From IMG/VR virus record IMGVR_UViG_3300048591_000337, positions 1 through 27,091 of that record: 27,091 nt of DNA; one strand, 5' to 3'. A program made the translations under genes and the position numbers. Of this stretch, positions 1 to 17,174 are shown in pieces. The first letter of the stretch is position 1. Every line of letters begins with the position of its first letter. The notes beneath the pieces were generated by a model, which ran no database searches, was not told where the DNA came from, and worked only from the letters and a program-made list of their open reading frames with translations. Source of the DNA: a virus (taxonomy: Duplodnaviria; Caudoviricetes).

Positions 1-197
1 TCCTTGATGGCTACCATCATGCCCTGTGCTTCATCTCTGATAACCTCGTCGCCCGAACGCTGCGTGACTGCGGAAGCCTTGTCCGCTTGCCGGGCATCCT
101 CGCCCGAACAAGCGGATGAAGCAGAATAGGGGCACTCATGCCTTTGGTAGTCTGTGTCCCAGCTAACTCCACATTTTCTGCAATAATCGCTATTCAT
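1..197 (-). CDS. Cassette hypothetical protein, partial (duplicate of 1563-1838, H to Y change); 3' end outside window
   Basis: Same sequence as 1642-1838; begins MNSDYCRKCGVSWDTDYQRHECPYSASSACSG. Confidence 0.65.
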   Translation of the reverse strand, partial: MNSDYCRKCGVSWDTDYQRHECPYSASSACSGEDARQADKASAVTQRSGDEVIRDEAQGMMVAIK

Positions 198-228
198 AAT
201 CCCCTCTCTGCTTATCACGCAGCGTTAT
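1..228 (+). repeat. Direct repeat copy A (matches 1642-1869; duplicated cassette, left end outside window)
   Basis: Identical to 1642-1869 except for one substitution (128 A vs 1769 G). Identity ends at GCGTTAT. Confidence 0.97.
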
Positions 229-230
229 GC
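103..230 (+). repeat. attC-like recombination site 1 (copy of site 5)
   Basis: R'' CCCGAAC 103-109. Arm GCGGATGAAGCAGA pairs with TCTGCTTATCACGC, with an extra G in the left arm. R' GTTATGC 224-230. Confidence 0.8.
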
Positions 231-233
231 CGA

Positions 234-554
234 TCATGTATCCAGCAAAAACTGCGTAGCTTTTCTGACGACCGCTGCTAGTGCTGCCTTGTCCTTATTG
301 TCAAATAAATCGAACAGCAGAGTGTCTATCGCTTGGTGAACATGCAGAGTACCGTTTCGACCTGCCCGCAACCACTCGACGTAACTTTGGTACGAATCAA
401 TCCGATCGCCGTTCCGAATTGCCCTCGCCAACTCAATTTCGTTGGTGACCTCAAGCATCGTCCTAGCGTGCTCTCTCAACTCATAAAGTGACGGCATAAC
501 AACGCGATGCAACGGAGCGGACGTATCCACGGCATCGACAGGTTTTTCATTCAT
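234..554 (-). CDS. Cassette hypothetical protein (106 aa, MNEKPVDAV...)
   Basis: 3' part of ORF 234..830. ATG at 554 is preceded by AAAGGAAA and lies in the loop of attC site 2. The ORF fills the cassette. Confidence 0.7.
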   Translation of the reverse strand: MNEKPVDAVDTSAPLHRVVMPSLYELREHARTMLEVTNEIELARAIRNGDRIDSYQSYVEWLRAGRNGTLHVHQAIDTLLFDLFDNKDKAALAAVVRKATQFLLDT

Positions 555-618
555 GTACGTTTTCCTTTGATTTATCGACACGTTGTAAATGTCCGCCCGC
601 TGATCGCGAGCGTTCGTC
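494..618 (+). repeat. attC-like recombination site 2
   Basis: R'' GCATAAC 494-500. CGCGAT(G)CAACGGAGCGGAC pairs with GTCCGCCCGCTGATCGCG. R' GTTCGTC 612-618. Confidence 0.85.
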
Positions 619-622
619 GTAC

Positions 623-967
623 CTAATCCGCCCGCATCGTCCTGATTCCAGGCTCTTGCGGAAAGAACCTTCCAGCGTCTTGCTTTGCCATGAATCGCAC
701 GAATACTTGATCTCTGAATCTTTCGTGCATCCGATGCAATGCTAACGCCCACATCATCAAACCACGTTTGCGGTTTCCGCCTGCCAAGCCGATGTATCGC
801 TTGGCAATTGGCGTATTTTGCTCTCGCCACACTGTGCCGTCTGGCATCAATGCCATGCCGAGGTAATGCACTCGCACACCGCTATCGTGCTGCCACGTAG
901 AGCATCCGACGAATCTCCAACCAGGACCGGGACGACGAACAATTCCTTCAATTGCCGCCTCGCTCAT
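623..967 (-). CDS. Cassette hypothetical protein (114 aa)
   Basis: ORF from the track. It overlaps the end of the upstream ORF and stops just before the R' box at 612-618. Confidence 0.65.
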   Translation of the reverse strand: MSEAAIEGIVRRPGPGWRFVGCSTWQHDSGVRVHYLGMALMPDGTVWREQNTPIAKRYIGLAGGNRKRGLMMWALALHRMHERFRDQVFVRFMAKQDAGRFFPQEPGIRTMRAD

Positions 968-1154
968 CTTCGATAAACTCCTGATACTTAACTCGAAACA
1001 TTGAAACGTGTGCTCGGTGCTTACAATCGAAACACTTTGCTCGCGTCAACTCGACTTGCTTGGCTCGATACGATCGACACTTCGGGCAACGCAATTCCCA
1101 ATCGGACGACGAACAATCGGATGCACCGAAGTCCTCGATCTTCTCTTTTGACAT
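948..1154 (-). CDS. Cassette small zinc-ribbon-like protein (68 aa)
   Basis: CPKC...CFDC motifs. ATG at 1154 lies in the loop of attC site 3, after a purine-rich GAGAAAGAGAG. Confidence 0.6.
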   Translation of the reverse strand: MSKEKIEDFGASDCSSSDWELRCPKCRSYRAKQVELTRAKCFDCKHRAHVSMFRVKYQEFIEDERGGN

Positions 1155-1197
1155 ACCAATCTCTCTTTCTCGGACTCGGTGATCCGTGACGTTAGGT
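1108..1197 (+). repeat. attC-like recombination site 3
   Basis: R'' GACGAAC 1108-1114. CGGAT(G)CACCGAAGTCC pairs with GGACTCGGTGATCCG. R' GTTAGGT 1191-1197. Confidence 0.85.
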
Positions 1198-1431
1198 GGA
1201 CGAAACGCCCATCGTTGAATCCAACGCAGAACGCAAACCATGAATGGAATCGCGAAGCTGTTCATTCACCTCAATCAAGTAATCAATTGCCGCTAGTGAC
1301 TGACCTGGTGGGACATCGATTTCTCGACGCAGACACTCTCGTATGTCATTGACAACTCCGGGGACATCAACCGCGCGTTGCCGCATTGCCTCTATCATCA
1401 CGCCATAACCGCTCGGAAACTTAACTGACAT
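1192..1431 (-). CDS. Cassette hypothetical protein (about 79 aa; alternative GTG start at 1440)
   Basis: The ORF fills the cassette exactly. An SD-like AGGTGG overlaps the R'' box, and the TAA stop lies within the R' box GTTAGGT. Confidence 0.7.
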   Translation of the reverse strand: MSVKFPSGYGVMIEAMRQRAVDVPGVVNDIRECLRREIDVPPGQSLAAIDYLIEVNEQLRDSIHGLRSALDSTMGVSST

Positions 1432-1438
1432 AATCGCC

Positions 1439-1527
1439 ACCTAACAAACCAATGCAACCGAGCGGCCATCGATCGCTTTTGAAGTGGTAAATCAACCGTG
1501 GCCGCCGGTTGATTGGTAGCGTTCTGG
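1439..1527 (+). repeat. attC-like recombination site 4
   Basis: R'' ACCTAAC 1439-1445. CCAAT(G)CAACCGAGCGGCCA pairs with TGGCCGCCGGTTGATTGG. R' GTTCTGG 1521-1527. Confidence 0.88.
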
Positions 1528-1562
1528 CGACGAATGGAATTTCGCGTCCATCGCTCATGCAA

Positions 1563-1838
1563 TTATTCTTGACGAGTTATCTCGATTCGCACTTTGAAAC
1601 CTTCGATTAAAAAGTCTTTGTATGCCCCATGTATCCGAAGTTCCTTGATGGCTACCATCATGCCCTGTGCTTCATCTCTGATAACCTCGTCGCCCGAACG
1701 CTGCGTGACTGCGGAAGCCTTGTCCGCTTGCCGGGCATCCTCGCCCGAACAAGCGGATGAAGCAGAATGGGGGCACTCATGCCTTTGGTAGTCTGTGTCC
1801 CAGCTAACTCCACATTTTCTGCAATAATCGCTATTCAT
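1563..1838 (-). CDS. Cassette hypothetical protein (91 aa, N-terminal CxxC...HxC)
   Basis: Part of ORF 1563..1859. ATG at 1838 follows GAGAGGGG inside attC site 5. Confidence 0.65.
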   Translation of the reverse strand: MNSDYCRKCGVSWDTDYQRHECPHSASSACSGEDARQADKASAVTQRSGDEVIRDEAQGMMVAIKELRIHGAYKDFLIEGFKVRIEITRQE

Positions 1839-1869
1839 AATCCCCTCTCTGCTTATCACGCAGCGTTAT
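1642..1869 (+). repeat. Direct repeat copy B (matches 1-228)
   Basis: Direct comparison of the two segments at offset 1641. Confidence 0.97.
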
Positions 1870-1871
1870 CG
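1744..1871 (+). repeat. attC-like recombination site 5
   Basis: R'' CCCGAAC 1744-1750. GCGGAT(G)AAGCAGAATGGGG pairs with CCCCTCTCTGCTTATCACGC. R' GTTATCG 1865-1871. Confidence 0.8.
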
Positions 1872-2132
1872 GGACGACGCCATCTGAATCGCCCGATCAA
1901 CTGCGTCTCTTGCTTCCTTCAAATCTTGCATTGCGTCACCCTTACCGCGAATGCCACTACACAACAGTTTCTTGATGGCGTGTTGCCTCGCTGGACACGT
2001 CACCGCAAAGGCTTCGAGGATCGCGTAAACATCGGCCCGGCCATCAACCAGACAACGCATCTCACGAAGATACTTCGAGCCGCTTTGGTTGAATCGTTGA
2101 ACAACATCATCTTTGGTTAGGTTTGTAGACAT
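1866..2132 (-). CDS. Conserved phage protein, DUF3310-like (88 aa)
   Basis: Motif DVYAILEAF...HAIKKLLCSGIRGKGDAMQDLKEA resembles a common phage family from recall. GGAGGTGA precedes ATG 2132. Confidence 0.65.
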   Translation of the reverse strand: MSTNLTKDDVVQRFNQSGSKYLREMRCLVDGRADVYAILEAFAVTCPARQHAIKKLLCSGIRGKGDAMQDLKEARDAVDRAIQMASSR

Positions 2133-2263
2133 TTTCGCCCGAATCACCTCCGGGCTAATGTCCTGCGTCCCTGGCTTCCTCTCTTTGCTTTCATGTAAAG
2201 CAACGGCCTGTTGATTCAGCCTCTTCAAAGTTTCCAGTCCGTGTACCAATTTCGTTCTCCTAT

Positions 2264-2584
2264 TCAGTTTGTGTAACCAGGAGGCGTCCAATCCGTCGCC
2301 ACCTTTCCTTGCTCGATATAACTCAACTCCGGCGCCTTCATGCCCCATCTGGAAGCAGCCTCGCGCAGACCAAGACCAAGTGTGGTCACTCGGTACTTGC
2401 GGAAAGTTAGCCCACGTTCATATTGCTCAACCTGTTGGCTTGAAATCCACCCAACTCCTTCACAGGTAGTACACTCAAGCTCTCTTATTGGTGGTCCACT
2501 CATTCCAGGTGCATAGGACACAATGACAATGGAAGACTCGCCAGCCCCGTTACATTCCGGGCATTTTGTCTTGTCGCTACTCAT
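2264..2584 (-). CDS. DnaJ-type zinc finger (CxxCxGxG x2) fused to an XRE-like HTH
   Basis: CPECNGAG and CTTCEGVG, followed by LGLREAASRWGMKAPELSYIEQG. GGAG RBS precedes ATG 2584. Confidence 0.75.
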   Translation of the reverse strand: MSSDKTKCPECNGAGESSIVIVSYAPGMSGPPIRELECTTCEGVGWISSQQVEQYERGLTFRKYRVTTLGLGLREAASRWGMKAPELSYIEQGKVATDWTPPGYTN

Positions 2585-3543: not shown

Positions 3544-4275
3544 TCACTCCCAAACTTCAACTATTCTCCTTCCAATCCATTCTGCGACTTGCGGCACAAC
3601 TGCGTTGCCGAGTCCTCTAAGTCGGTCCACATAGGCGGAAATCCCTGAACGGCTTCGATGACCGCTATGCTCGGGTATGGCTGGCCATGATGCCTTGCCC
3701 ACCAATGTGTAAATGTTGTTTCTCGGTTGGCTTTCGGATGATCTTTGGTGGTTCCACCCTTCCATGCGTTGGCTGTCGGCGTTGGCATCGACACCGAGCA
3801 CAAACAATCGTTCTCGACGATGCCTAGCGCCAACGCAACACGCCCTAAATCGGAAGGGCAAGCAAGCGTAACCAAGCGACTCAAGGCCAGCTCGGAATCG
3901 AAACCAAGGCCAGGGAGCATCGACTCTGATGTGGCTTGGATTTTCTCTGACCACAATGCGAGGGCGAACCTCTTCAACAATTCGCAGGAACTCACCGCCA
4001 AGACTCTCTTTTTTGGATCGACCGGCACCCACTGCCGCGCTGTTAGCTTGGCATGGGTCTCCTCCACAGATAACGTCAACTCGCTCAAGGTTGTGTTTTC
4101 CGCACTGCTTAATGTCTCGTTCTCTATGAACGCTTGGCCAATGTTTTTCAAGCACTTTTGTTGCGTAGTCATCTATCTCCACCTGCCACTTGCAAACCAT
4201 CCCTGCCTGTTCAAAACCAAGATCAAATCCGCCGATTCCAGCAAATAAACTTCCAAACGTAATCACAGATTCCAT
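3544..4275 (-). CDS. DNA (cytosine-5)-methyltransferase
   Basis: Motif I SLFAGIGG, catalytic GGDPCQ, REN, RRERLF and C-terminal LGNAVVPQVAEWIG. Likely start is MESVITF at 4275. Confidence 0.93.
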   Translation of the reverse strand: MESVITFGSLFAGIGGFDLGFEQAGMVCKWQVEIDDYATKVLEKHWPSVHRERDIKQCGKHNLERVDVICGGDPCQANSAAVGAGRSKKESLGGEFLRIVEEVRPRIVVRENPSHIRVDAPWPWFRFRAGLESLGYACLPFRFRACCVGARHRRERLFVLGVDANADSQRMEGWNHQRSSESQPRNNIYTLVGKASWPAIPEHSGHRSRSGISAYVDRLRGLGNAVVPQVAEWIGRRIVEVWE

Positions 4276-4425
4276 CCTAAAAATTGCACCGCCCACTTTG
4301 CCGCCGATATGGTCACGGTGCTGAGAAGGAGCCTCACAATCACCTAGCGTCAACGGCTGCCTGTAAGTGATTGCTACATGAAAAAGCGCCCGAGGTTTGC
4401 CGCGCCGGGCTCGCGGTCGAAAGGT

Positions 4426-4590
4426 TCAATCAAACAATCCTGGCTGCCTGAGCACCGCGCCCAGGGCATCATCCACCTGCTTTTCGAGCCGCTTCGATTT
4501 CTCGAGCGCCGGCCCGCTGCGCGTTCGAAAATACTCTCGCTGAGCCGTTCGCATTTCCTGCACCAAACTAGCTAGTTGCTCTACAGTCAC
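4426..4590 (-). CDS. Small phage hypothetical protein (54 aa)
   Basis: GTG start overlaps the upstream TGA (GTGA). Helical MRTAQREYFRTR...LEKQVD; ends QPGLFD. Confidence 0.65.
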   Translation of the reverse strand: MTVEQLASLVQEMRTAQREYFRTRSGPALEKSKRLEKQVDDALGAVLRQPGLFD

Positions 4591-4823
4591 GCCAGCACCC
4601 CAGCGTCGTTTCGTTTCTTGCCTTTGGAAACGTCCTGCAGCCAAACCGACCTGGTATTGGCCTGGTAGTCCCGACCATCCCATTCCAGCAACTCACCATT
4701 CCGCCAGATGCAGAACTCACCCCAACCGATGATCGAGAACTGAATGTATCCCTCGTCAACGTCGGTGATTTGCACTCGATTGGCCCCGAGCCCCTGGAGA
4801 AGTCGGTTAAATTGCTCAATCAT
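4587..4823 (-). CDS. Hypothetical protein (78 aa)
   Basis: ORF tightly overlapping both neighbours. Confidence 0.6.
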   Translation of the reverse strand: MIEQFNRLLQGLGANRVQITDVDEGYIQFSIIGWGEFCIWRNGELLEWDGRDYQANTRSVWLQDVSKGKKRNDAGVLA

Positions 4824-5157
4824 CGCTTTGCCCCTCCAGCGCCAAAACCAAACTCATCACCACATCGTTGCCAGCAGATAGCGGAACATCGATGTACCAA
4901 TCCACATGGCCAGACGAACAGTGCTGTATCGTGATCCAGGGACAATGGTTGGACTCACCGATTACTTTCACCTTCCCCTTCCGGTAGGTCGGCCTGGTCG
5001 GTCGATCTGGCCTGCTGTCAGACTCGGAAGGCTTAAACCCAAGCCCCAACAGCAGCTCCCTGGCGCAGCTCACTGTGGCCGGTCTGGAGTCGCTACGCCG
5101 CTTGGGGCGTCCGCTGACATGGACGCCACCGCTTTTCTTTCGCTCCTTAACTCGCAC
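4816..5157 (-). CDS. Hypothetical protein (113 aa)
   Basis: ORF coupled to recT and to the downstream ORF. Confidence 0.55.
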   Translation of the reverse strand: MRVKERKKSGGVHVSGRPKRRSDSRPATVSCARELLLGLGFKPSESDSRPDRPTRPTYRKGKVKVIGESNHCPWITIQHCSSGHVDWYIDVPLSAGNDVVMSLVLALEGQSDD

Positions 5158-6058
5158 TGGGAGCCTCGCTGACTGGAGCCTCTGGCTCCTGCTCGGGATC
5201 TACTGAAGACGCAATCAGCCGCTCGGTCAGGTCATCCAGTCCCAGTCTCTTTGCAGTGCCCTGGATGACTTCAGCGCCGCCAAAAGAGTTCTCCGAGTCG
5301 ATCGACAGCGCCCGAACGCTTTCTACATCATCGATCACACACCAACCCCGCGATACCGCGTAGTGCATCGCTGTCTTCATGGATTGCTCAATCGGCCATT
5401 TGTGCCAAGGGTCAGACTCTCTAGCCCAGTCGTTAGCCAGAGCAAACCTATAGGCATCGGATTGATTTCTACGAAGCTCAATAACCGACTTTGGCACCCA
5501 GCCGCGAAAAGTCACAATGCCGCTTGTTCTGTCTTTTACCAAAACAACCACACCGCGCAGGTCGTCCATCGTCGCCGGTGGATTGTCGATGTCGCGAGAC
5601 TTGACTACAGCCTCGCCGCCATCGTCTACTCCAATATCGTCTTTGTAGGAAATCGGAATCGGTATCAAGGCTTGATCGCATCGCTTTGCCAGTGCAGCAA
5701 TACCGCGATGAGAAAGCTCATATCGAAGTATTGGTGGCTCACCCTTCCTAGCACGCCGAGGGATCGCGTAGGCAAGAGCGTTTCGAGTCGTTCCGACCAT
5801 AATTCCAGTCAACGCAGAAATTGCGACTACAGAACCGATACTTTCTTTTGTGCAGTTATAGAACTCGTCTGGTTTCTTGCTGCTAGCTGCTGCTGCTGAC
5901 AACGCGATCGAAACTCTTCCTATCGCGTCAGCCGCCCTCTCTTCTCCGACCCAGTCTGTTAGCAAGCTGGTCGCGATTGCAGTACATGTTGCCCGAAACT
6001 GCCTTGCTGGTGTCAATACTGGCTGCTTGTTGTCGCTGTTTGTTACTGCTGTACTCAT
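5147..6058 (-). CDS. recT: RecT-family single-strand annealing recombinase
   Basis: RecT-like motifs AYAIP...YELSHRGIAALAKR and SDPWHKWPIEQSMKTAM; lies next to a YqaJ exonuclease. Confidence 0.8.
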   Translation of the reverse strand: MSTAVTNSDNKQPVLTPARQFRATCTAIATSLLTDWVGEERAADAIGRVSIALSAAAASSKKPDEFYNCTKESIGSVVAISALTGIMVGTTRNALAYAIPRRARKGEPPILRYELSHRGIAALAKRCDQALIPIPISYKDDIGVDDGGEAVVKSRDIDNPPATMDDLRGVVVLVKDRTSGIVTFRGWVPKSVIELRRNQSDAYRFALANDWARESDPWHKWPIEQSMKTAMHYAVSRGWCVIDDVESVRALSIDSENSFGGAEVIQGTAKRLGLDDLTERLIASSVDPEQEPEAPVSEAPSAS

Positions 6059-6088
6059 AATGCCAATACCCTTCTGCTTAGATAAAAA

Positions 6089-6424
6089 CTAACCCTCTAA
6101 AGACGATCTAAACTCAATCAGTGCGGCAACGTGCAATTCAAGTGACTTTACTTGCCGCTTTAGCTCCTCGATCTGCTCCTGCAAGCACTCATTGCTCAGA
6201 CGCTTTTGGTATGTCTCAACCACCCGAGTAACTTCCATCTTGGCATCCTCGCAGACACCGACGATATTTCGGCGAGTCACCGGAAACTGAATCGCTTTGG
6301 AAAAATAAGAAATGGCCTCATCCCAATTTTTCAGCGGGCTTTCCAGTGCTGAAATGGCGTCCCGCAGTTCAAACGACTTCGCGCGACCCAAGACATTCTG
6401 CCGTGTTCCCCTGACACCACCCAT
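6089..6424 (-). CDS. Hypothetical protein with C-terminal coiled coil
   Basis: ATG overlaps the YqaJ stop (TAATG); LQEQIEELKRQVKSLE heptads. Confidence 0.65.
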   Translation of the reverse strand: MGGVRGTRQNVLGRAKSFELRDAISALESPLKNWDEAISYFSKAIQFPVTRRNIVGVCEDAKMEVTRVVETYQKRLSNECLQEQIEELKRQVKSLELHVAALIEFRSSLEG

Positions 6425-7419
6425 TATTTGCCCACCCTTCTTAAAACGCGAAACGTAGAACACTTCTCACACTCAAGCGCGATCTCTGGATGTCGCTCCC
6501 GCAGCAAATCCGCGTCGATCGACCTGCGCGACTGCTCCTTCCACGAATACCGCCCACCACCAGGCAGAGAGCCCCAGGTAGCCCCACCGATCGCCGCTTT
6601 CAGGCGGTTCTCGATGCCATCAATCTTGGCCTCGATCTGCTTTCGCTGGTCCTTCAGCTCCAGCAGCTCTCGGTCCAGATCGAAAAAGTCAACTGGCAAG
6701 CTCACTTCCTCGCCCGAGTCATGCGGGTAGATCAACCCAATGACAGCCTTCGTCGCCTCCGACTCATCGACCGGCGGCATTTCCTTTTTAAGCACGTAAA
6801 TCCAGAACCGAGCCAGCTTACTCAGCATGGCCTCGATAAATCGGTCGTTCCGCTCGATAAGCCTAATACTCAGCTCATCGCCACCAATCAATCCAACCAG
6901 GTAGCAATGACTCGCACCCGTAACCGCCATCTGAGTCTGGCACTGCACCATGTACTTCAAAGGTGGCTCGATGTCCTCATCCCAATCGCCGCGAAACCGA
7001 CCATTGACCGCTTTCAGCTCCACTGGGATGCAGCCATGTTCTGGGTGTCGGCACCACCTATCGAGAGTCGCAAACAGCCACTCATAGGTGTCACTGCGAT
7101 AGATCGTGAAGTCGCCTGGATCGACGGTCTCAAACCCCGTTTCCTCCTCGAACTCCATCGCGATATACGGCTCCAGCCGCTTGCCCCTGTTCATGCGTTT
7201 CAAAGTGGCCGCGTCAAACTCTTGCTTGGCCGCTCCGGTCTTCTCTGCCCAGACTGTGATCGGGCTGGTATTGGCGTAGCCAACACCGAAGATACTCGCC
7301 ACTTCGCTGGCACCGATGCCAGTCCTCCGAGTCTCCAGCCACTGCTCCCGAGTGTCATGGAACTCGGTTATCGATGTCCACCTGCTCTTTGTCTCGTACT
7401 TCTCCGCTGTCTCCGTCAT
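6424..7419 (-). CDS. YqaJ-like viral recombinase exonuclease
   Basis: WLETRRTGIGASE, GKRLEP, ATLD, VELK and YMVQCQTQM motifs. Confidence 0.93.
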   Translation of the reverse strand: MTETAEKYETKSRWTSITEFHDTREQWLETRRTGIGASEVASIFGVGYANTSPITVWAEKTGAAKQEFDAATLKRMNRGKRLEPYIAMEFEEETGFETVDPGDFTIYRSDTYEWLFATLDRWCRHPEHGCIPVELKAVNGRFRGDWDEDIEPPLKYMVQCQTQMAVTGASHCYLVGLIGGDELSIRLIERNDRFIEAMLSKLARFWIYVLKKEMPPVDESEATKAVIGLIYPHDSGEEVSLPVDFFDLDRELLELKDQRKQIEAKIDGIENRLKAAIGGATWGSLPGGGRYSWKEQSRRSIDADLLRERHPEIALECEKCSTFRVLRRVGK

Positions 7420-7549
7420 CCTTCTCAATCCCCTTGCATTTGATCCCATAACCACGAAGCGCAACCTTCAAAAACTTGCGCAGCCTTATAGCTGCTGGGC
7501 TCGGCCAGCCCTTTTCAATTACCTCAACCTCCAGTCTGTATTTGGCCAT
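7355..7549 (-). CDS. Small basic hypothetical protein (64 aa)
   Basis: ORF in the operon; IRLRKFLKVALRGYGIKC amphipathic segment. Confidence 0.55.
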   Translation of the reverse strand: MAKYRLEVEVIEKGWPSPAAIRLRKFLKVALRGYGIKCKGIEKDDGDSGEVRDKEQVDIDNRVP

Positions 7550-7790
7550 CCTTAGCCGCTCTCCTTACTCGCTCCCTGACTTCACTGGCCACTTCGTAGT
7601 GGCTCACGTATCGGCCAGGGTATTCGTCGCTCAGCGCGTTGGAGACTCGCAAGGCCAAGCGATTAACCGACTCCATTGGCTCTTCGTCGGGCTCAGCCCC
7701 CTCGAAGAATTGCCGCTCGACTTCAGCCACCGCAACCTGATGCAGTTCATCGGCTGTCAGTCGTAACGCCTCTGGAATCGCCATCATCAT
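7524..7790 (-). CDS. Hypothetical protein
   Basis: ATG overlaps the upstream stop; acidic helical composition. Confidence 0.6.
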   Translation of the reverse strand: MMMAIPEALRLTADELHQVAVAEVERQFFEGAEPDEEPMESVNRLALRVSNALSDEYPGRYVSHYEVASEVRERVRRAAKDGQIQTGG

Positions 7791-8158
7791 TTCCCCCAAA
7801 CAAGCCACTCGAAAAACAACGACCATAAACTCACCGGCTTGACTGGCTTCGGGACTGGTCTCGGAAGATCGCTCAAAGTCCGCATCTCCGCGTCCCTATC
7901 TCGCCGCTCGCAACACGCATGGCACTGGCATGCACTACCGCAAGCCTCTGGCCATTTCTCCCTGATCATCGCGACCAACTCAGCCGCGTCGTGAAAGTCC
8001 AAACCTGTCAGCAGATCCGCAGCCTCGCGACCAGGCCAGCGGAGCGCTTCGTACTTTTGATCCAGATTGCCATGCACGATGTACACATGACCATCCTTTA
8101 CGAGTCCAGCCGCAGCGGTCCTGCCAACAACAACGTCCGCTTCAATTTGCTTTAACAT
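7787..8158 (-). CDS. Hypothetical protein with a CxCxxC cluster (123 aa)
   Basis: ORF with an AAGGA RBS; CGSACQCHACC. Confidence 0.65.
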   Translation of the reverse strand: MLKQIEADVVVGRTAAAGLVKDGHVYIVHGNLDQKYEALRWPGREAADLLTGLDFHDAAELVAMIREKWPEACGSACQCHACCERRDRDAEMRTLSDLPRPVPKPVKPVSLWSLFFEWLVWGK

Positions 8159-8221
8159 GCTGGCAATCCTTTGCGTAAATGAGGTTCTGAATAGCCCCAG
8201 ACATACAACGCCCCCTTGAAA

Positions 8222-9001
8222 TTAGTTATCGTTTACCCACGCCCTAATCGCAGCCTTTGAAATGTCGCTGCACTTCGCCCAAAACTTTTTGAACTCATCG
8301 AGCTTGTTGTCTTCCTTCGGTTTCTGAAGTTGCTCCTCTTCTTGTTCTTCCACATCCTCGTATTCAATCGCTTCCGGTTGAACTAGATGATTTATTGACT
8401 GTTTTGGTTGCGTCGCTTCCTTAACAACTTGCCTAACCGCCTTGATGCCTTGCTTTAAAATCTTCGCTTGCTCTTTCTTGTCAGGCACTGCTTTGACAAA
8501 CTTAGCCGCAAGGCTTGAGGTGATCTCGTCGCGCTCCATCGCCTCAACAAGCTCTTTGCAACCGCCTTTAATTGCAGCCTTGGCTCGCTTGACTGATGGT
8601 TCGCTGACGTTCAACTGTGCAGCCGCATCTGCCAAAGTATCATTTGATCCCTTGCCACCTGTGTGCTGATTTCCGCGCTCTCCACCATGTTTCAGCTTCG
8701 CCAGCTTCGCCGCCACCGTTTCTCGCTGCGTTTCACTCAGGTGCCTGCGATGCAGGTTATGGCTGATAACGTACTTCCAAGGATCGGTATCAGGATCAAG
8801 CTCCGACACATGGGGATTACGCTGCAGCTCCTCGCACGCCCGCAGCCGGTGCCTACCATCTATTAGCTTGTCGCACCAAACAACGATATCCTCACGCTGT
8901 CCGTTTTCTGCGATGTCCTTTTTTAGTCCCTGATACTCCTCCTCAGTCATCGGAGGAAACAACGTAGCTGCTGGATGCACTTCATACTGATGCTTTAGCA
9001 T
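8222..9001 (-). CDS. ParB/Srx N-terminal domain protein with HTH
   Basis: HPAATLFPPM...LIDGRHRLRAC...NLHRRHL motifs; AAAQLNVSEPSVKRA HTH. Confidence 0.88.
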   Translation of the reverse strand: MLKHQYEVHPAATLFPPMTEEEYQGLKKDIAENGQREDIVVWCDKLIDGRHRLRACEELQRNPHVSELDPDTDPWKYVISHNLHRRHLSETQRETVAAKLAKLKHGGERGNQHTGGKGSNDTLADAAAQLNVSEPSVKRAKAAIKGGCKELVEAMERDEITSSLAAKFVKAVPDKKEQAKILKQGIKAVRQVVKEATQPKQSINHLVQPEAIEYEDVEEQEEEQLQKPKEDNKLDEFKKFWAKCSDISKAAIRAWVNDN

Positions 9002-10367
9002 TGCTCTTTGCCTCCATGTAGTCTTTAACTAGATAGCCCATCGCCTGCCCAAAGTCTTTGAACGAAAACTTAAAAAGCTCGTTCCCTTTTTCGTCATGGC
9101 GGCACCCGTAGTCGGCAATCAAAGCAACTGCACAAGCAGTCAATGCTGCCCTATTAGATTCAGACTTAGCCAAGGCAATCAGTCCGTTGTTTAGGTTGAG
9201 CGAAACTCGCATTCCAGCGCGATCAAACGAACCAAGCACTGATTGGTCTAACTCACACCAATCGAGAATGTACCCGCCACGCCTGCCAGTCTTGCCGTTA
9301 GTGCAAAGCGAATCACCAAGACCATGAACCTTGCTGGCTTTTGTATGCTTTTTACCAGTGCTCTTTGGTGCTATAGAGCCAACAGAATCTCCTTTGTCTC
9401 TCTTGGCCTTGCCTTTGTTCGCTTCATTGACTGCCTGATTCAGCATTTGCTGAAGTTCACCACGCAGAGCAGATGATTCGATAGTCTCGGCAAGCTGGTC
9501 AGCCTTCTTAAGAACGTGCTCGATGCGAACAAAAATCGCATCAGCCAATCGCTCTTGGTTCTCGCTCAGGTCGTCTTTGTTTTTAGCTAAAGCCCAGCCT
9601 TCACCGAGATGAATCGTTCCAGCCATGCGTCGCACGCTGTATTGTCCAGCACCTAGCGAATTGGCATCAATGATTCTATGGCCATAGACCAGCCAAAACG
9701 GCCCTCGTTCTATTGAGACGCCATCCGGCAAAATACCAATGTCAATCCTTACGGCCTTGCCATCAATTTCAAACTCGGATTGCACAACATCGTTTCGCAC
9801 TGGCATCTCAACCGGCGGCAAAACCTTCTTCTTGCCATTGATGGACCTTACTATCTGAATGCCATGAGCAATTGCAGGGGTGAAGACAAACGCCAAGCTC
9901 TGGAAAGCATCTTCATTGGGCTGCTTCTTCCCGTTTCGCAGCGGCAGCTTAATGACTGTTCCCGATGGACCGTTGCAATCTCGGATTTCAGGGTCTGGGA
10001 CGTTCCAATTGTTCTGCATCCACTCGGTATAATTCACCTTCATTGTGGATTCTTTCTTTCCGCAGCACGTGACTACCTCCATTGTGTCAGCGCAAGAAAG
10101 CCAAGCATCCTTTGCACCAATCCCATATCGACCTAGCTTGCTGGTCTTTCGGTGCTTGTGATCGCCAAGCTTGAAGACTGAAGTAATATCTTCGCATCCA
10201 GCACCGTCATCAGAGACAGTTAGAACTCTGTTGGTAATGTCGATAACGACACGTGTTGCACCGGCATCAAGAGAGTTGTCTACTAGCTCAGCAAGAGCCT
10301 TCCACCAAGGAAGATTTGCATTAGCAAGCGAAGCCAGTAAATGCGGTGCTGGTGGCAAGTGAACCAT
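8982..10367 (-). CDS. GHKL (HATPase_c, MORC-like) ATPase
   Basis: ELVDNSLDA, DDGAG, GRYGIGAK and GT boxes. AGGAG RBS precedes ATG 10367. Confidence 0.88.
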   Translation of the reverse strand: MVHLPPAPHLLASLANANLPWWKALAELVDNSLDAGATRVVIDITNRVLTVSDDGAGCEDITSVFKLGDHKHRKTSKLGRYGIGAKDAWLSCADTMEVVTCCGKKESTMKVNYTEWMQNNWNVPDPEIRDCNGPSGTVIKLPLRNGKKQPNEDAFQSLAFVFTPAIAHGIQIVRSINGKKKVLPPVEMPVRNDVVQSEFEIDGKAVRIDIGILPDGVSIERGPFWLVYGHRIIDANSLGAGQYSVRRMAGTIHLGEGWALAKNKDDLSENQERLADAIFVRIEHVLKKADQLAETIESSALRGELQQMLNQAVNEANKGKAKRDKGDSVGSIAPKSTGKKHTKASKVHGLGDSLCTNGKTGRRGGYILDWCELDQSVLGSFDRAGMRVSLNLNNGLIALAKSESNRAALTACAVALIADYGCRHDEKGNELFKFSFKDFGQAMGYLVKDYMEAKSNAKASV

Positions 10368-10426
10368 ATCCGTACTCCTAAACCCAAAAGAATCCTGCAA
10401 GCCAGCGTAGTGCCAGCCTGCCACTA

Positions 10427-10666
10427 CTACTTCAGAACAACGCTGACCTTTGCAGCCAGCCAGTCTTGAATCTGCTCGGCAACGTCTTCACAACGTCGCT
10501 CGCCTGCCAGCCTGAAAGCCTGCTTAGCCCCACGAAAAACGTGGAACCACTCAGAGATTTCCTGCCTACTAGTGGGAAGCAGAATTGCGTCCCGAACTTC
10601 GGCGAATGTGTCGCCTTGAGAAATCCGATCGAGTGCTTCGAATGGATGGTAAATGCAGTCAGACAT
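10427..10666 (-). CDS. Hypothetical protein (79 aa)
   Basis: GGAGGT RBS before MSDCIYHP. Confidence 0.7.
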   Translation of the reverse strand: MSDCIYHPFEALDRISQGDTFAEVRDAILLPTSRQEISEWFHVFRGAKQAFRLAGERRCEDVAEQIQDWLAAKVSVVLK

Positions 10667-10700
10667 AACACCTCCCAAGTGGGCTAGGGTAACTAATAAA

Positions 10701-11231
10701 CTAAACAACGTGACGCCAAGTCTTACCACAAATAGCCCGCGATGCAGTTTTGTGACTCACGCCAATCTGCTATGCAAGCCAAGAAATACTAATACCTAGC
10801 TCATTGTGAAGAACCCGCAGGTTCCTGACTGTACTCTCGTTCAGCACCGCATTCCATGAACGCTCGCCTCGAAAGTGATTTGATCGACCACGCAAATATG
10901 CGTCCTTCACATTTCTCGACTGATCAACGCACTCAAGATGCTCCGGGTTGACACAAAGCCTATTATCGCACTTGTGAGCAATCACCATATTATGCGGGAT
11001 TTCTTGTCCGTTAGCGATAACCCACGCTGCCCTATGAGCAAGCACATTCCACTTTGACCCACCGACCTTTTGGCACAAAACACCGTACCCGTCAACCGTC
11101 GCACCTTGCCACTCAACGCAACCCGCCAAATTAGGCTGAGATTTGCCTCGCTCCATACTGGCAAGCAGCGATGGGTTTACGACAATTGGTCGCTTCTTTT
11201 GTTTTTTCTTGTCCATGCTACCCACCTGCAA
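10701..11231 (-). pseudogene. HNH endonuclease with C-terminal HTH, interrupted by an in-frame TAG at 10770-10772
   Basis: CVEWQG...GYG...AHRAAW...HKCDNRLCVNPEHL...N motif. The frame continues past the stop: WLA*QIGVSHKTASRAICGKTWRHVV*. Confidence 0.8.
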
Positions 11232-11258
11232 ATTATTTCTAAATCCAAACCAAAAAAA

Positions 11259-11435
11259 CTACTTAGGCTTGCAGCCCCTATTTGGTTTCCAATGCTTTCG
11301 AATCTTCGCAATGTCAGCATCGCTTAGCATGTGAGCGTATCCGTATTTCTTTCCAAGACTCAACGCCTTCGCCCACCGTGTTACAGTTGCGATTGAGCAG
11401 TTAAGTTCTTTGCTTGCTTCCGTTGCTGTTTTCAT
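11259..11435 (-). CDS. Small helix-turn-helix DNA-binding protein
   Basis: TATEASKELNCSIATVTRWAK. Confidence 0.75.
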   Translation of the reverse strand: MKTATEASKELNCSIATVTRWAKALSLGKKYGYAHMLSDADIAKIRKHWKPNRGCKPK

Positions 11436-11443
11436 GATGTTGA

Positions 11444-11472
11444 ATGTTATCGGCAACAAAAACCTTTTGCAA
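11444..11472 (-). promoter_or_regulatory. Putative sigma70-like promoter, near-leaderless
   Basis: TTGCAA-17 bp-TAACAT, ending 8 nt before ATG 11435; overlaps a GCCGATAA motif. Confidence 0.5.
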
Positions 11473-11480
11473 TAGGTATT

Positions 11481-11681
11481 CTAAGATTTTTTAGAATTAT
11501 TTTTCCTCGGCTGCCCAGGCGTTGCCCGTTCGCTTAGTTGGTCCCTGACCTCCTTCGGTAAGGACCGATTGCACTGCTTGCCGATCCATGCAGCCAAAGA
11601 CAATCCAGCGGATTTTGCCGCCGCCTCCCATGCAGCCCACCAGTCAGTGGGCTGGGTTGTGTTTCGCCGTTCGTTGGTCAT
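11481..11681 (-). CDS. Probable ribbon-helix-helix DNA-binding protein
   Basis: Short beta-like N-terminus, then WAAWEAAAKSAGLSLAAWI. Confidence 0.65.
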   Translation of the reverse strand: MTNERRNTTQPTDWWAAWEAAAKSAGLSLAAWIGKQCNRSLPKEVRDQLSERATPGQPRKNNSKKS

Positions 11682-11962
11682 TATTCGACCACCATCAACG
11701 CATCGCGTGCATAGCTAGGTCCATCGCTAAAACCTTCAAGGCTCTGAATCGCACGCCACGTTGCGGAGTCAACCGTTGCTCCACCTTCTCGGACTTGATT
11801 TGCGATCTCTGGGTAAGCTTCGTCAAATGCTGCCCAAAAGGTTTCTGCGTTATTTTCAAAGTCTGCTTTGATAGTGACTTGCTTTGTGTTTTTATCGATC
11901 ATGCTCAGGTGCTTTCGGTATTGTCGAGTCCCAGAATTTCTTGCTGAGTTTTGCTTTTTCAT
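11681..11962 (-). CDS. Hypothetical protein
   Basis: First ORF after the promoter; TAATG coupling to the next gene. Confidence 0.6.
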   Translation of the reverse strand: MKKQNSARNSGTRQYRKHLSMIDKNTKQVTIKADFENNAETFWAAFDEAYPEIANQVREGGATVDSATWRAIQSLEGFSDGPSYARDALMVVE

Positions 11963-12017
11963 TTTGCTGTCCCCTGTGTTAGTTGTTTTCGGCTCGCGAC
12001 TGTCGCTTGCACGATTC

Positions 12018-12061
12018 TATTATACACACAATATCGGGCACAGCAAGAGTATTGTACACAC
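12018..12061 (-). promoter_or_regulatory. Putative early promoter flanked by 12-bp direct repeats (operator candidates)
   Basis: TTGCTG (12046-12041)-16 bp-TATAAT (12024-12019). Repeats TATTATACACAC 12018-12029 and TATTGTACACAC 12050-12061. Confidence 0.6.
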
Positions 12062-12133
12062 TTTTTGAAATTATTTCAGAAGTTTTCCCAGTCGGGAAAA
12101 TAGCCGGTTTTTAGAAAAACCAGGCTTGATTTC

Positions 12134-13489
12134 TTACCGATCGGGATACGGAAAATGCCGGTTGACCATCTTTAACGCCTCGGAGCGCCGGCAGCTGTAG
12201 AACCTTAACCAGCACCGTACCAGCCGCGATAGTTCTGGCTGCTCCCAATCGCCCAGAACGCGAGTAGCCGTGTCCCCCAGCCCTTTGTCCTCTGGCTGAA
12301 CCAACTCGCGGAGTTGGGCTATTACAGCTTCATGTTGCTCATAAGGTAGCTCGTTGATTTTTTCCCGTACAGCGCGGACCTCATGGATTGCCAGCGAAGT
12401 CTCCTCGGGTGCTTCGTCACAGCAGCCCGCGACCACTACAGGGGTAACTGTGATCGTTGCGTTTTCGTACCGGCAAGACCCTTCGTCCCCTGGGTCGCTG
12501 GAATCGTAGTCATCGTCGATTCGCATATCCTCTGGCAACGCGGAACTGCCAAAGCCCTTAAACCAGTTCCATTCGTTTTGGCCGTTGTCATCAGGCAGGA
12601 TTTGCAGCTGCAGCGTTTTCTCGCCTGTCGTTGCGTTGCAAAGCAACACCACGCTAATTTGGGAGTTTCCTGCAAAGCAGTCATGGGGGCCGGTCACTGT
12701 CGCAGCAAATGAAGGATTGCAGCCGCATTGATCCTCGAAGCCGACTCCAGTCTGCAAAGTGACCCTGACAGACACGCTTTCCAGGCAAGTGCAATTATTG
12801 GACTCAATGTCTGCAATGGTCACGTCAAAAGCCGCGATCGTTCGATTGACCGTTGGGAAGCAGCATGACCGAGCGCACCGAGGGCATGTGGTGTTGTGGA
12901 GGTAGTGGTCTGAATAGGTGATCTCAGACCATTTGGTGACTGTGGAACTACCAGCACCTATCGCAAACCAGTAGCCGCTAGCTGTGCCGCAATACCTCTG
13001 AGTAAGACCACCGCTGACCGATGACTCGAACAGGTTGTCACCCATGCAGACGGTCCAAATCAAAGTCGCATCGGTTACGACGTAGCTTTCCTCAAACTCC
13101 ACCGAACCACCAACCACAATCCGCTGAGTAATCTCGTTGGTGTCGATCACTTCAATTTCAGTGTAGGTATCAGTCGGCGAGCCGCATGGAGTACCAAGAC
13201 TGCCGTGGAAAGCATAGATGCGGAACTTCTGTCCAACCGTATCGGCTTCGATTGTTGCCGTGAAGATTCCGTATGGATGCCCAACCATGTGTTTGAGCAC
13301 CATCTTGGAATCGCTTGCTCTGCTGACGATTCCAGTGAACGCTGGGGAAGATGGGTTTATCTCCCAGTCGGTCCAGTCGCCTCCGCACACTTCCCAGTCC
13401 GGCTCAAGCAACGTTTCGTCATTGCTGGTTCGCTGGAATCCGTCTGAGTATTCGTAGCAAGGCCCGCAGCAGCATCGCTTGGTCGGCAT
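12134..13489 (-). CDS. Cysteine-rich putative virion (tail tip/receptor-binding) protein
   Basis: Last gene of the tail module. MPTKRCCCGPC start, many Cys clusters, beta-rich middle, C-terminal KGLGDT...NRHFPY. Confidence 0.7.
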   Translation of the reverse strand: MPTKRCCCGPCYEYSDGFQRTSNDETLLEPDWEVCGGDWTDWEINPSSPAFTGIVSRASDSKMVLKHMVGHPYGIFTATIEADTVGQKFRIYAFHGSLGTPCGSPTDTYTEIEVIDTNEITQRIVVGGSVEFEESYVVTDATLIWTVCMGDNLFESSVSGGLTQRYCGTASGYWFAIGAGSSTVTKWSEITYSDHYLHNTTCPRCARSCCFPTVNRTIAAFDVTIADIESNNCTCLESVSVRVTLQTGVGFEDQCGCNPSFAATVTGPHDCFAGNSQISVVLLCNATTGEKTLQLQILPDDNGQNEWNWFKGFGSSALPEDMRIDDDYDSSDPGDEGSCRYENATITVTPVVVAGCCDEAPEETSLAIHEVRAVREKINELPYEQHEAVIAQLRELVQPEDKGLGDTATRVLGDWEQPELSRLVRCWLRFYSCRRSEALKMVNRHFPYPDR

Positions 13490-13911
13490 CAGGCATCCCC
13501 TGCTACGCAACATCGATCGTGGGCCACATAGTGGCAGGGTGTAAGCTCGCCTTCTTCGGCTTCAGGATCTTGAGAGGCTGCAATCCCCCTGCCAAACCAA
13601 ACCCAAACACCGTCCAGATCTTCAATCGGCAAATCGAAAACACACCCCGACCAATCCACCACTTGAACAGACGTTCCAACCACAGTGCCTTCGTTGCAGG
13701 GGCCGACTTCCACCATGACCGTTCCGACTTTTTTGCCGGTATAGTGCCCAGTACCATCAGTTAAAGCAGTTAGCGTTCCCTGGTAGGTCGCACCATCACC
13801 ACCCAAGTCCCTTGGCACAATCTCTGGGAACTCGCCATCCGTGTTGCCAATGAGGTTGATTACCTCAATCGTGTCGGCTTTATTAAAGCCATAGACTTTA
13901 TCGTCAGGCAT
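13489..13911 (-). CDS. Hypothetical tail-region protein (140 aa)
   Basis: Coupled ORF in the tail module; ends HDRCC. Confidence 0.75.
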   Translation of the reverse strand: MPDDKVYGFNKADTIEVINLIGNTDGEFPEIVPRDLGGDGATYQGTLTALTDGTGHYTGKKVGTVMVEVGPCNEGTVVGTSVQVVDWSGCVFDLPIEDLDGVWVWFGRGIAASQDPEAEEGELTPCHYVAHDRCCVAGDA

Positions 13912-14318
13912 TATGCCCTCGGTATGCCAGTGGCACGAATGTCCAAGTCAAGCTGTGTTGCCGTAGCCGCTGTGCCCAATCGAGTTACGTTGTAGCCAGT
14001 TGTCAATTCACTCGCTGCGATGATCTCTCCAGCAGTCGCACCCACGTAGTACGTTTCGCCTACCACCATCGTCGTACCAACCAGGATGATACTGCCACCA
14101 AAAGCAGCAATGCCATACCCACCATCTACTCCAGGTGTCATCGCAATGCACTTGGCCGCAGCTGCTGTCGCCGATAAGTTAGCATCGGCTAGCTTGTGCT
14201 CATTGTCTGCGCTGTCTAAATACAATGGATTCCCAGGGGCCACAGTCGCACCATAGGGCACGTTCCGATAGTCCGTGTTGGCGGTTGGCCTGACTGCTGT
14301 GATTCCAGTAAGCGGCAT
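13911..14318 (-). CDS. Ala/Gly/Thr-rich virion protein, decoration/cement-like
   Basis: GATVAPGNPLYLD...KLADAN...GETYYVG pattern resembles small virion decoration proteins. Confidence 0.65.
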   Translation of the reverse strand: MPLTGITAVRPTANTDYRNVPYGATVAPGNPLYLDSADNEHKLADANLSATAAAAKCIAMTPGVDGGYGIAAFGGSIILVGTTMVVGETYYVGATAGEIIAASELTTGYNVTRLGTAATATQLDLDIRATGIPRA

Positions 14319-14320
14319 GG

Positions 14321-15178
14321 CTAGAGCCTCAGAAACGAAAATGAAATGGATGGGTAGATGTCAAACTCTAAGGTTGCCGGAGGACTACCAGCCGCTGCTT
14401 TTCCGCCGCTGCCGTTGAGGCTGCCAAGAATCACAGTCCGATTGTCGTCGTCTAGGTACGGCTTCCTCTGCCCTGTGGCAAGGTAGATCGTCCCAACATC
14501 AAGCCGCTTGTGAGTCCAGAGACGGTCGTTGTACTTCAAAGAATACTGAGTGAGTCGCCGCCGCGCCCCGTAGTAGAACCCTACGCGACTACTCAGGATT
14601 GTTAGCAGCAATGACTTCGCGGCCCGTCCTTTGAATGAAGCATTATTGACGGTTTCGTTACGATCGATGATTTGCTCATCGGTAACGGTTGCGGGCTCGA
14701 ACTGAAAGAACTCCCAGACTGGAATGAAACGGCCAATTGTCAGGCCGACCTGGAAAGGCTGCCCAGCCGAGTTAGCAATGGAGGTGCCACTCTGGTCTTT
14801 CGTAACAACCTCCTGAAGCCGTTCGAACTTGGTTTCGTAGATCGGCACCCAGACGGTTGGATCGGACTCCGGGTCTTGCGAGTCTTGGCCTTCTTCAACT
14901 TCACTGGAAAAGGTCGCGGTCACATCCCAGATCAGTGGATTGTCCGCCCGCCTAAATGCGTCCACGCCAATACAGACCGCCGCGCCAAAGGCTGATACCG
15001 TCTGGTTTGCCCGTGGCAGACCAGGCGTACCGTACAGCACCTCAATCCGCGTCGTGGATTTGTTATCGGTCTGGACAATGTAGCGGTAGGTCTCGTTCAG
15101 GACCGCCATGCCGTTTGAGTTGGAGACCGTAGCACTACCGTCCCGAGTCTGGCTGTTGTCAACGATCCATGATGCCAT
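14321..15178 (-). CDS. Putative distal tail protein (285 aa)
   Basis: Immediately follows the tape measure gene; function inferred from synteny only. Confidence 0.65.
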   Translation of the reverse strand: MASWIVDNSQTRDGSATVSNSNGMAVLNETYRYIVQTDNKSTTRIEVLYGTPGLPRANQTVSAFGAAVCIGVDAFRRADNPLIWDVTATFSSEVEEGQDSQDPESDPTVWVPIYETKFERLQEVVTKDQSGTSIANSAGQPFQVGLTIGRFIPVWEFFQFEPATVTDEQIIDRNETVNNASFKGRAAKSLLLTILSSRVGFYYGARRRLTQYSLKYNDRLWTHKRLDVGTIYLATGQRKPYLDDDNRTVILGSLNGSGGKAAAGSPPATLEFDIYPSISFSFLRL

Positions 15179-16794: not shown

Positions 16795-17174
16795 TACTGA
16801 AACACCTTTTCCGCCATCTTCTGAGCCGCAGCAAACCGCTGTTTAAGCTCTTCCGCTGTCACCTTTTCATGGCTGGTTGCCTGCTTTTGCCCCACCCAGT
16901 TGCCAGGCATCATGCACCTGGCTATTGCATTGACGAACTTCTCGATATCCTCAATCTCGCCGCCATGCCTTCGACACAGGTAAAACAGCAGCCCAACTAT
17001 CTTGGCCAGCAACTCCGACTCAAGGCCGAAGGGCTCAAGCCGATAGTAGGCCAGCCAATTGTCAAACACTCTGGCAGGGCAATCTTCCAGCCACTGCTCT
17101 GGATCTTCTATTCCAAGCCGCAGACCCAACCTGTGAGCCAGTGTTAGCTCTGGGTTGAGTCTGAGCCTTTTGGG
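16794..17174 (-). CDS. Tail assembly chaperone, frameshifted C-terminal extension (gpT-like)
   Basis: The -1 frame is open from the slippery site into ORF 16794..17129; WLAYYRLEPFG motif. Confidence 0.8.
   Translation of the reverse strand, partial: PKRLRLNPELTLAHRLGLRLGIEDPEQWLEDCPARVFDNWLAYYRLEPFGLESELLAKIVGLLFYLCRRHGGEIEDIEKFVNAIARCMMPGNWVGQKQATSHEKVTAEELKQRFAAAQKMAEKVFQ

What the first reader, a model, noticed from the sequence alone, without database searches (positions are those of the whole stretch)
1..1871. Phage-borne integron-type cassette array (attC sites without a visible integrase)
Seen: five imperfect palindromes of 89-128 bp share the attC architecture (AAC box, left arm with one unpaired G in ATG(C/A)A, variable loop, right arm, GTT box). 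The core sites pair across each cassette rather than within each site: GTTATGCCG(224)/CGGCATAAC(492) 9/9; GTTCGTCGT(612)/ACGACGAAC(1106) 9/9; GTTAGGTGG(1191)/CCACCTAAC(1437) 9/9; GTTCTGGCGA(1521)/TCGCCCGAAC(1741) 9/10. Established: this is the signature left when circular cassettes are inserted by an IntI tyrosine recombinase at G|TT, and integrons are described mainly from chromosomes and plasmids, rarely from phages. Inference: the phage maintains a shufflable accessory gene array, using either the host's IntI or a recombinase encoded left of the window.
Basis: partly seen in the sequence, partly recalled or inferred. Interest (0 to 1): 0.95.

Follow-up and report, generated by a model that had tools for sequence, protein, structure and literature searches.

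The report
Phage integron array with backwards cassettes
This bacterial virus, likely infecting a planctomycete, keeps small accessory genes in a row of integron-type cassettes whose genes face the opposite way from those in bacterial chromosomes, and, as no integron enzyme was found in its genome, it likely borrows one from its host or from another phage to swap them.

Summary
Confirmed and extended. The five hairpins are real attC sites (four distinct: 1-228 repeats 1642-1869 with one SNP, so cassette D is duplicated between crossover points). A 41.4-kb record of the same phage (G001, 100% identical over 25.4 kb) adds eight more cassettes and an attI-like end; a 43,035-bp contig fits the sum, giving about 13 cassettes inside the early operon, with no tyrosine recombinase. 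Across viral contigs 96 of 129 cassettes are antisense (10 sense); in cellular, mostly Planctomycetota, arrays 68 of 89 are sense. Three of 36 viral records encode a true IntI of a separate phage-linked branch beside attI; one shares cassette B1 at 95.5%. Phage and host cassette genes did not overlap in my sample. Phage CALINs are published (PMC9892861); the reversed layout and phage IntI branch were not found in print in my searches, but this scan noted them before on other DNA (e1-6197296, e1-5359260). Recombination and expression are untested.

The parts
1..197 (-). 5' part of the gene of cassette D' (duplicate of D; Tyr where D has His); cut by the contig end; start codon inside attC D'
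   Evidence: the full 91-aa Tyr variant exists as P0121 on contigs up to 43,035 bp
103..230 (+). attC D' (AAC at 107, crossover G|TT at 224/225)
   Evidence: (41 bits; near-identical to a training site)
225..612 (+). cassette A (388 bp); antisense gene 234-554 (106 aa, start and SD-like motif inside the attC loop; alternative start 497)
   Evidence: no Pfam, PHROG or PADLOC match
494..618 (+). attC A (AAC 498, GTT 612)
613..1191 (+). fused cassette B (579 bp): antisense gene B1 623-967, orphan inverse core at 933-941 (remnant of B1's own attC), antisense gene B2 948-1154 starting in the attC B loop
   Evidence: (family D12), 9, 40, 42: 611-944 is 95.5% identical to a stand-alone cassette with intact attC in G002/L040
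1108..1197 (+). attC B (AAC 1112, GTT 1191)
1192..1521 (+). cassette C (330 bp); antisense gene 1192-1431 (79 aa) whose TAA stop is the TTA of the left core
   Evidence: exact protein on 5 contigs, longest 43,035 bp
1439..1527 (+). attC C (AAC 1443, GTT 1521); 75-87% identical to chromosomal sites in 43 of 301 genomes of the family of G053 (Pirellulaceae by record title)
   Evidence: z -5.4
1522..1865 (+). cassette D (344 bp); antisense gene 1563-1838 (91 aa) whose first ~30 residues are coded by the attC
   Evidence: (G001 identity begins exactly at 1522)
1744..1871 (+). attC D (AAC 1748, crossover G|TT at 1865/1866), right end of the array
1866..2348 (-). flanking phage gene (phrog_2452-like); its TAA stop lies on the TTA of the last core; no attC upstream of it
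3544..27091 (-). siphophage backbone co-directional with the cassette genes: C5 methyltransferase, RecT/RecE, ParB-like, HNH, tape measure, connector, capsid, protease, portal, terminase

Best explanation
The region is the right end of an array of attC-bounded cassettes in a tailed phage, with every cassette gene on the strand opposite to normal integron cassettes, and its cassettes are likely moved by an integron integrase supplied in trans. Shown: attC architecture and cross-cassette core pairing; cassette D present twice with ends at the two crossover points; cassettes shared with unrelated phages; an AT-rich attI-like junction at the far end (G001:37580); no recombinase match in the 41-kb record; genes co-directional with the phage early genes. 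Inferred mechanism: IntI would excise a cassette through its folded bottom-strand attC and insert the circle at attI or at another attC (copy-and-paste gives duplicates such as D/D'). Because genes are inverted, transcription would come from the phage early operon through the array toward attI, not from a Pc promoter; the attC loop would often supply the ribosome-binding site, start codon and first residues, and the core the stop codon, so each cassette is a self-contained translation unit. The enzyme is more likely the host's chromosomal IntI (about 55%) than the IntI of a co-resident phage (about 35%). The cargo is likely accessory early functions, including anti-restriction in related phages.
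For: Core pairing and folds; covariation. G001 is 100% identical over window 1642-27091 and matches 1522-1768 at its other end, preceded by a different attC; 8 further attC. Exact proteins of window-only cassette C, of G001-only cassettes g4 and g6, of D' and of the capsid all have a longest contig of 43,035 bp = 41,394 + 1,641. Cassette B1 95.5% in G002, 306 bp of g1 94.8% in L306, g4 78% in G029 starting at the core. Polarity: viral 96 antisense/10 sense/23 unclear of 129; cellular 10/68/11 of 89; Fisher p 4e-28 on cassettes, 26 of 30 viral versus 2 of 18 cellular arrays antisense-majority. PHROG matches for 20 of 123 antisense ORFs versus 0 of 116 sense ORFs, 8 of them methyltransferases. 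Of 96 antisense ORFs 40 stop on the TTA of the core, 25 at +10 to +12, 35 have their best start inside attC. Polarity is fixed independently by intI-attI position in G002, G009, G029. G001's junction ranks 1 of 1366 GTT sites with a matrix from 8 chromosomal attI-like sites, 31-47 with one from 10 phage-IntI sites. IntI over cutoff in 11 of 18 cellular genomes with such arrays.
Against: No recombination, circle or expression data. G001's terminal repeat is the D repeat itself and CheckV calls it 55% complete, so a missing segment with a recombinase is not strictly excluded. G001's SNP pattern (start of D', end of D) fits assembly collapse or homologous recombination, not IntI excision, so G001 versus window is not proof of IntI shuffling. 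One G001 site has A|TT instead of G|TT and B1's attC has decayed: parts of the array are fixed. The attI matrix rests on 8 sites I called myself. The cassettes shared at high identity are with IntI-bearing phages or contigs, which favours a phage enzyme or block transfer. Orientation was called by longest ORF; 23 of 129 were unclear and arrays are not phylogenetically independent. The model R1 was built from this phage, not IntegronFinder's model.
Confidence: 0.78

Rival explanations
1. The array is a mostly frozen relic: real cassettes assembled in an IntI-bearing phage and inherited as a block by RecET or host homologous recombination, no longer recombined by IntI in this phage.
For: No integrase in G000/G001; RecE and RecT present; decayed sites (A|TT core in g8, fused B); cassette C is on as many contigs (5) as the capsid protein, so no turnover is visible among those assemblies.
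Against: D and D' differ at only 2 of about 344 bases and end at both crossover points; 12 distinct attC keep compensated stems; an attI-like end is kept; B1 is 95.5% identical to a cassette in an unrelated backbone.
Confidence: 0.14
2. The hairpins act mainly as RNA elements (terminators or translation-control stems) and exchange is by homologous recombination between similar repeats.
For: Starts and SD-like motifs lie in the loops; attC C scores as terminator-like on the minus strand (within chance: 16 found, 12 expected).
Against: The sites share little sequence (47% column identity); cores pair across cassettes in 114 of 129 viral cassettes versus 19 within sites, which RNA folding does not explain; the same site family lies beside intI and attI.
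Confidence: 0.05
3. The segment is host chromosomal integron DNA misassembled onto, or flanking, the phage.
For: It lies at a contig end inside a repeat; the attC family is shared with Pirellulaceae chromosomes.
Against: In G001 the array is flanked by phage genes on both sides; chromosomal arrays have sense genes; no cassette gene body matched in 301 family genomes or in canonical cellular arrays; several assemblies carry it.
Confidence: 0.02

Closest known systems
CALINs and integrons in phage genomes (Qi, Rajabal, Ghaly, Tetu, Gillings 2023, PMC9892861; main text parts 1-4 of 7 read, supplement searched by terms)
   Same: Cluster of attC sites without intI in a phage; methyltransferases among cassette genes of related phages; 5 of 6 tested phage attC recombined with IntI1 in that paper.
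   Different: That paper describes 17 CALINs, calls TJE1 and PH101 typical in structure, and its complete integrons are captured host or class 1 integrons. It does not describe in text systematic antisense genes, starts inside attC, planctomycete phages or a phage-linked IntI branch (figures and Dryad annotation files not seen).
Sedentary chromosomal integrons of Planctomycetota (taxon-specific attC model mentioned in Ghaly et al. 2021, PMC8352920, passages read)
   Same: Same attC family (model R1 finds 134 sites in 79 cellular loci; attC C matches 43 of 301 family genomes), same core pairing (82 of 89), same intI-attI-array geometry.
   Different: Chromosomal cassette genes are sense and longer (median cassette 574 versus 389 bp); no shared cassette proteins found; chromosomal IntIs are at most 40% identical to the phage IntIs.
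SALINs and small CALINs made by IntI insertion at GWT (attG) sites (bioRxiv 10.1101/2022.09.11.507474, passages read)
   Same: Cassettes away from any intI, placed by an integrase acting in trans at a short GWT motif.
   Different: Here 13 cassettes are stacked at one site with an attI-like end and uniform polarity; attG insertion showed no orientation bias relative to genes in that study.
Copy-and-paste cassette duplication by IntI (Souque et al. 2021, PMC8024014, passages read)
   Same: A duplicate cassette bounded by crossover points within one array, as D/D'.
   Different: Shown experimentally there for a class 1 integron on a plasmid; here only inferred from sequence.

Membership tests
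attC site | RYYYAAC/GTTRRRY-type R boxes, L stem, 5/6-7 nt unpaired central spacer, bulged bases, variable loop on the bottom strand | tested here: met
   bulged bases are C and T on the bottom strand (the G/T pattern of attCaadA7 is recalled, not from a call)
attC site | Inverse core pairs with the core of the same cassette (circular-cassette signature) | tested here: met
   6,6,6,5 of 6 in the window; 114 of 129 viral cassettes at 5-6 of 6 versus 19 within sites
attC site | Hit to the IntegronFinder or attC-taxa covariance models | not testable with these tools
   models not held; Rfam gave no match in 1-1871; own model R1 used instead
attC site | Bottom-strand recombination by an IntI | not testable with these tools
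   needs an assay
CALIN | Two or more attC in a cluster | tested here: met
   5 in the window, 9 in G001
CALIN | No integron integrase nearby | tested here: met
   no PF00589 at E<=1 and no TIGR02249 in G000 or G001; completeness of G001 not certain
Complete integron (this phage) | intI gene next to the array | tested here: not met
   met in related phages G002, G009, G029
Complete integron (this phage) | attI site at the 5' end of the array | tested here: inconclusive
   attI-like junction at G001:37580 ranks 1 of 1366 with an 8-site chromosomal matrix; outside the window; function untested
Canonical integron cassette | Gene on the attC top strand, upstream of its attC, read from Pc at attI | tested here: not met
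   4 of 4 window cassettes and 6 of 7 scored G001 cassettes antisense, 1 unclear; PHROG 20 of 123 antisense versus 0 of 116 sense
Integron integrase (related phages G002, G009, G029) | TIGR02249 above cutoff, IntI-specific insertion, catalytic R-K-H-R-H-Y | tested here: met
   280-310 bits versus cutoff 265; insertion and residues aligned with chromosomal IntIs (residue roles recalled)

The most novel reading that the evidence does not exclude
Planctomycete phages run their own integron economy: a phage-specific IntI branch with its own attI, and a cassette pool separate from the host's, built from phage genes fitted backwards between attC sites so that the attC loop donates the translation start and the core the stop. 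Integrase-less phages such as this one are freeloaders that trade cassettes using IntI in trans. Such cassettes would show de novo cassette genesis from phage genes.
Probability: 0.5. Interest if true: 0.87.

Novelty: new variant of a known kind. Interest (0 to 1): 0.7.

Why it matters
Integrons are viewed as bacterial platforms, and integron parts in phages as captured cargo. Here the platform looks refitted for a phage genome: inverted genes read with the early operon, a separate cassette pool, and a phage-linked IntI branch. It gives a site-specific route to phage mosaicism and anti-restriction gene exchange. It also makes the open question of cassette genesis testable, because gene starts and stops are built into the recombination sites, and it offers natural attC/attI/IntI sets from host and phage for cross-recognition assays.

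Tried and rejected
Naive hairpin scan: 3 sites versus 1.7 by chance, not discriminating. Folding z-scores: significant for 1 of 5 sites. Rfam: no family on the array. Relatives of the flanking gene (30 other loci) and of the replication protein (2 other loci) had no attC at E<0.05 in the DNA held, so no sister phage with the same backbone and a different array was found. Metagenome scan for the attC D junction: 0 hits; viral scan for the flank: only G001. Sequencing runs: one small-share DNA holder, no RNA holder listed; laying it showed only related cassettes with other flanks at 943 and 1190 and one weak joint 625-1103 with a 23-base side, not used as evidence. No Pfam, PHROG or PADLOC match for the window's cassette proteins; ESM Atlas gave no usable hit for B1. 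Promoter scan: 5 found, 8 expected, uninformative. Rooting the IntI tree with two non-IntI recombinases failed: one fell inside the phage branch; the careful IQ-TREE search did not finish. One search had an off-by-one error in the attI test, corrected. No PF04860 portal in G053; its prophage status rests on integrase, RecE/RecT, replication and RusA genes. I first read window versus G001 as two IntI-shuffled variants and rejected it after the SNP pattern and the 43,035-bp length match. Literature searches listed no paper on antisense phage cassettes or a phage IntI branch; the library lacks most subscription papers.

Full report
Observation. Five sites on the + strand have AAC, a 5-base spacer, an L arm with an unpaired G, a variable loop, the complementary arm, a 6-7-base spacer and GTT. 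The six bases after each GTT pair with the inverse core of the next site at 6, 6, 6 and 5 of 6, and with their own site at 1, 2, 2 and 2. All five bottom strands fold into the attC shape, but only one is more stable than shuffles, and a naive hairpin rule is not above chance. Covariation over 12 distinct sites of this phage is strong: 93% of cells paired, 11 of 16 pairs with changes on both sides, 0 of 500 shuffles as high in covariation score (the structure was drawn from these sites).

The host element. The window is a whole 27-kb contig of an HK97-type tailed phage, with all genes on the minus strand. G001, a 41,394-bp viral record, is 100% identical over window 1642-27091, continues through tail-like, replication-initiation and RusA genes, then carries eight further attC cassettes and rejoins cassette D exactly at window 1522, behind a different attC. 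Exact proteins from window-only cassette C, G001-only cassettes g4 and g6, D' and the capsid all have a longest contig of 43,035 bp (5 of 10 proteins looked up were in the collection), which equals 41,394 plus the 1,641-bp D'-A-B-C unit. I infer one genome with 13 cassettes, and that G001 lost the unit between the D repeats by assembly collapse or homologous recombination; its SNP pattern does not fit IntI excision. I did not see the 43,035-bp contig. Neither record matches PF00589 or TIGR02249. G001's terminal repeat is the D repeat and CheckV estimates 55% completeness, so absence of a recombinase is likely, not proven.

Mobility. D and D' share sequence from the first T after one crossover to four bases past the next, which is what copy-and-paste duplication by IntI gives (PMC8024014, passages read). 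Window 611-944 is 95.5% identical to a stand-alone cassette with an intact attC in G002, whose 16-kb locus shares no backbone with this phage; in the window that cassette's attC has decayed to an orphan inverse core at 933 and is fused to B2. G001 cassettes g1 (306 bp, 94.8%) and g4 (440 bp, 78%) recur in L306 and G029.

Polarity. A degenerate attC pattern returned 125 viral and 123 cellular loci; I scanned 79 of each with model R1, dropped duplicate arrays, single sites and gaps over 1,300 bp, and added the window, G001 and L040. By longest ORF, 96 of 129 viral cassettes are antisense, 10 sense, 23 unclear; 68 of 89 cellular cassettes are sense, 10 antisense, 11 unclear; 26 of 30 viral and 2 of 18 cellular arrays are antisense-majority. 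Two viral arrays are sense-majority and two tied. The antisense ORFs are the real genes: 20 of 123 match PHROGs (8 DNA methyltransferases, a Lar-like protein, an HNH nuclease, 10 unknown) against 0 of 116 sense ORFs. Of 96 antisense ORFs, 40 stop on the TTA of the core, 25 at 10-12 bases from it, and 35 have their best-scoring start inside the attC loop, mostly 36-54 bases from the inverse core. Homologues of the D protein keep the middle and vary in the part coded by the loop.

The enzyme. Three of 36 viral records encode an IntI above the TIGR02249 cutoff, each directly left of its array, behind a conserved AT-rich attI whose core pairs with the first cassette; this fixes attC polarity independently of genes. 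Three more viral loci and five metagenome contigs of unproven nature carry relatives. A profile of these IntIs lists 120 proteins at 524 bits or more, while the best match in 301 sampled Planctomycetota genomes scores 293 (different pipelines, so rough). In a quick tree the phage-type IntIs lie on one side of a branch with support 95, or 99 with L319 (FastTree 0.999); the metagenomic rows were chosen by likeness, and rooting failed. The two cellular arrays that were antisense belong to genomes whose IntI falls on this branch: L319 in a prophage-like region of a Pirellulaceae MAG and L316 in the MAG of L213. This phage's own left junction (G001:37580) ranks 1 of 1366 GTT sites with a matrix of 8 chromosomal attI-like sites, but 31-47 with 10 phage-IntI sites, a weak pointer to the host enzyme. 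IntI is over cutoff in 11 of 18 cellular genomes with these arrays.

Host and pools. attC C matches 43 of 301 genomes of G053's family; all listed matches fall on attC sites, none on cassette genes (two candidates scored per genome). The 96 phage cassette proteins hit only the phage-type arrays among 0.82 Mb of cellular loci, and 68 chromosomal cassette proteins hit nothing in 1.0 Mb of viral loci. A Pirellulaceae host and separate cassette pools are inferred; the samples are small.

Comparison. It works like an integron cassette array and meets the CALIN definition; it is not a complete integron, and fails the canonical gene-polarity feature. Phage CALINs and their recognition by IntI1 are published (PMC9892861; parts 1-4 of 7 read, supplement searched, figures and Dryad files not seen, and they may show gene orientation). 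Six searches listed no paper on reversed phage cassettes or a phage IntI branch. Earlier notes of this scan report the reversed layout on other genomes, including a planctomycete-type case and a phage-linked IntI branch; I had reached both readings before seeing them and count them as no support.

Verdict. Recombination, the source of IntI and expression are untested.

Noticed in passing
window 3162-3298 (-): Rfam tRNA match (45 bits, 137 nt) with a long insert in the anticodon arm; ARAGORN finds nothing. Possibly an intron-bearing or degenerate tRNA.
   Followed up: no
G001:C1:41060-41153 (L036 15061-15154): The attC before D' ends in A|TT instead of G|TT, which would likely block recombination there.
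   Followed up: partly
window 1750-1838 (-); P0121-P0127: The N-terminus of the D protein is coded in the attC loop and carries Cys pairs; homologues have different loop-coded N-termini, most still with Cys pairs. The D/D' SNP at 128/1769 changes His to Tyr there.
   Followed up: partly
G003 (62.5-kb record with terminal repeats): 16 attC matches on both strands and no tyrosine recombinase match: at least two opposed arrays in one phage.
   Followed up: no
L054, L115, L066: Viral-collection records with sense or mixed cassettes; L054 is classed provirus; they may be host integrons.
   Followed up: no
L076, L059 versus L068, L073, L082, L103, L109, L117: Phages without a detected IntI keep attI-like ends of two kinds: the phage-IntI type and other AT-rich types.
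   Followed up: partly
L300 900-2100, L301 1150-2050: First cassettes beside these phage IntIs hold several short antisense ORFs; the 'sense' calls look like shadow frames.
   Followed up: partly
window 8222-10424 (-): Adjacent ParB-like (259 aa) and GHKL-type ATPase (480 aa) genes in the phage early region.
   Followed up: no
G051 (Planctomycetaceae SH139), L312: The array next to its chromosomal intI gave mixed orientation calls (4 sense with the first cassette, 3 antisense, 2 unclear among the rest), unlike its other array L225.
   Followed up: no
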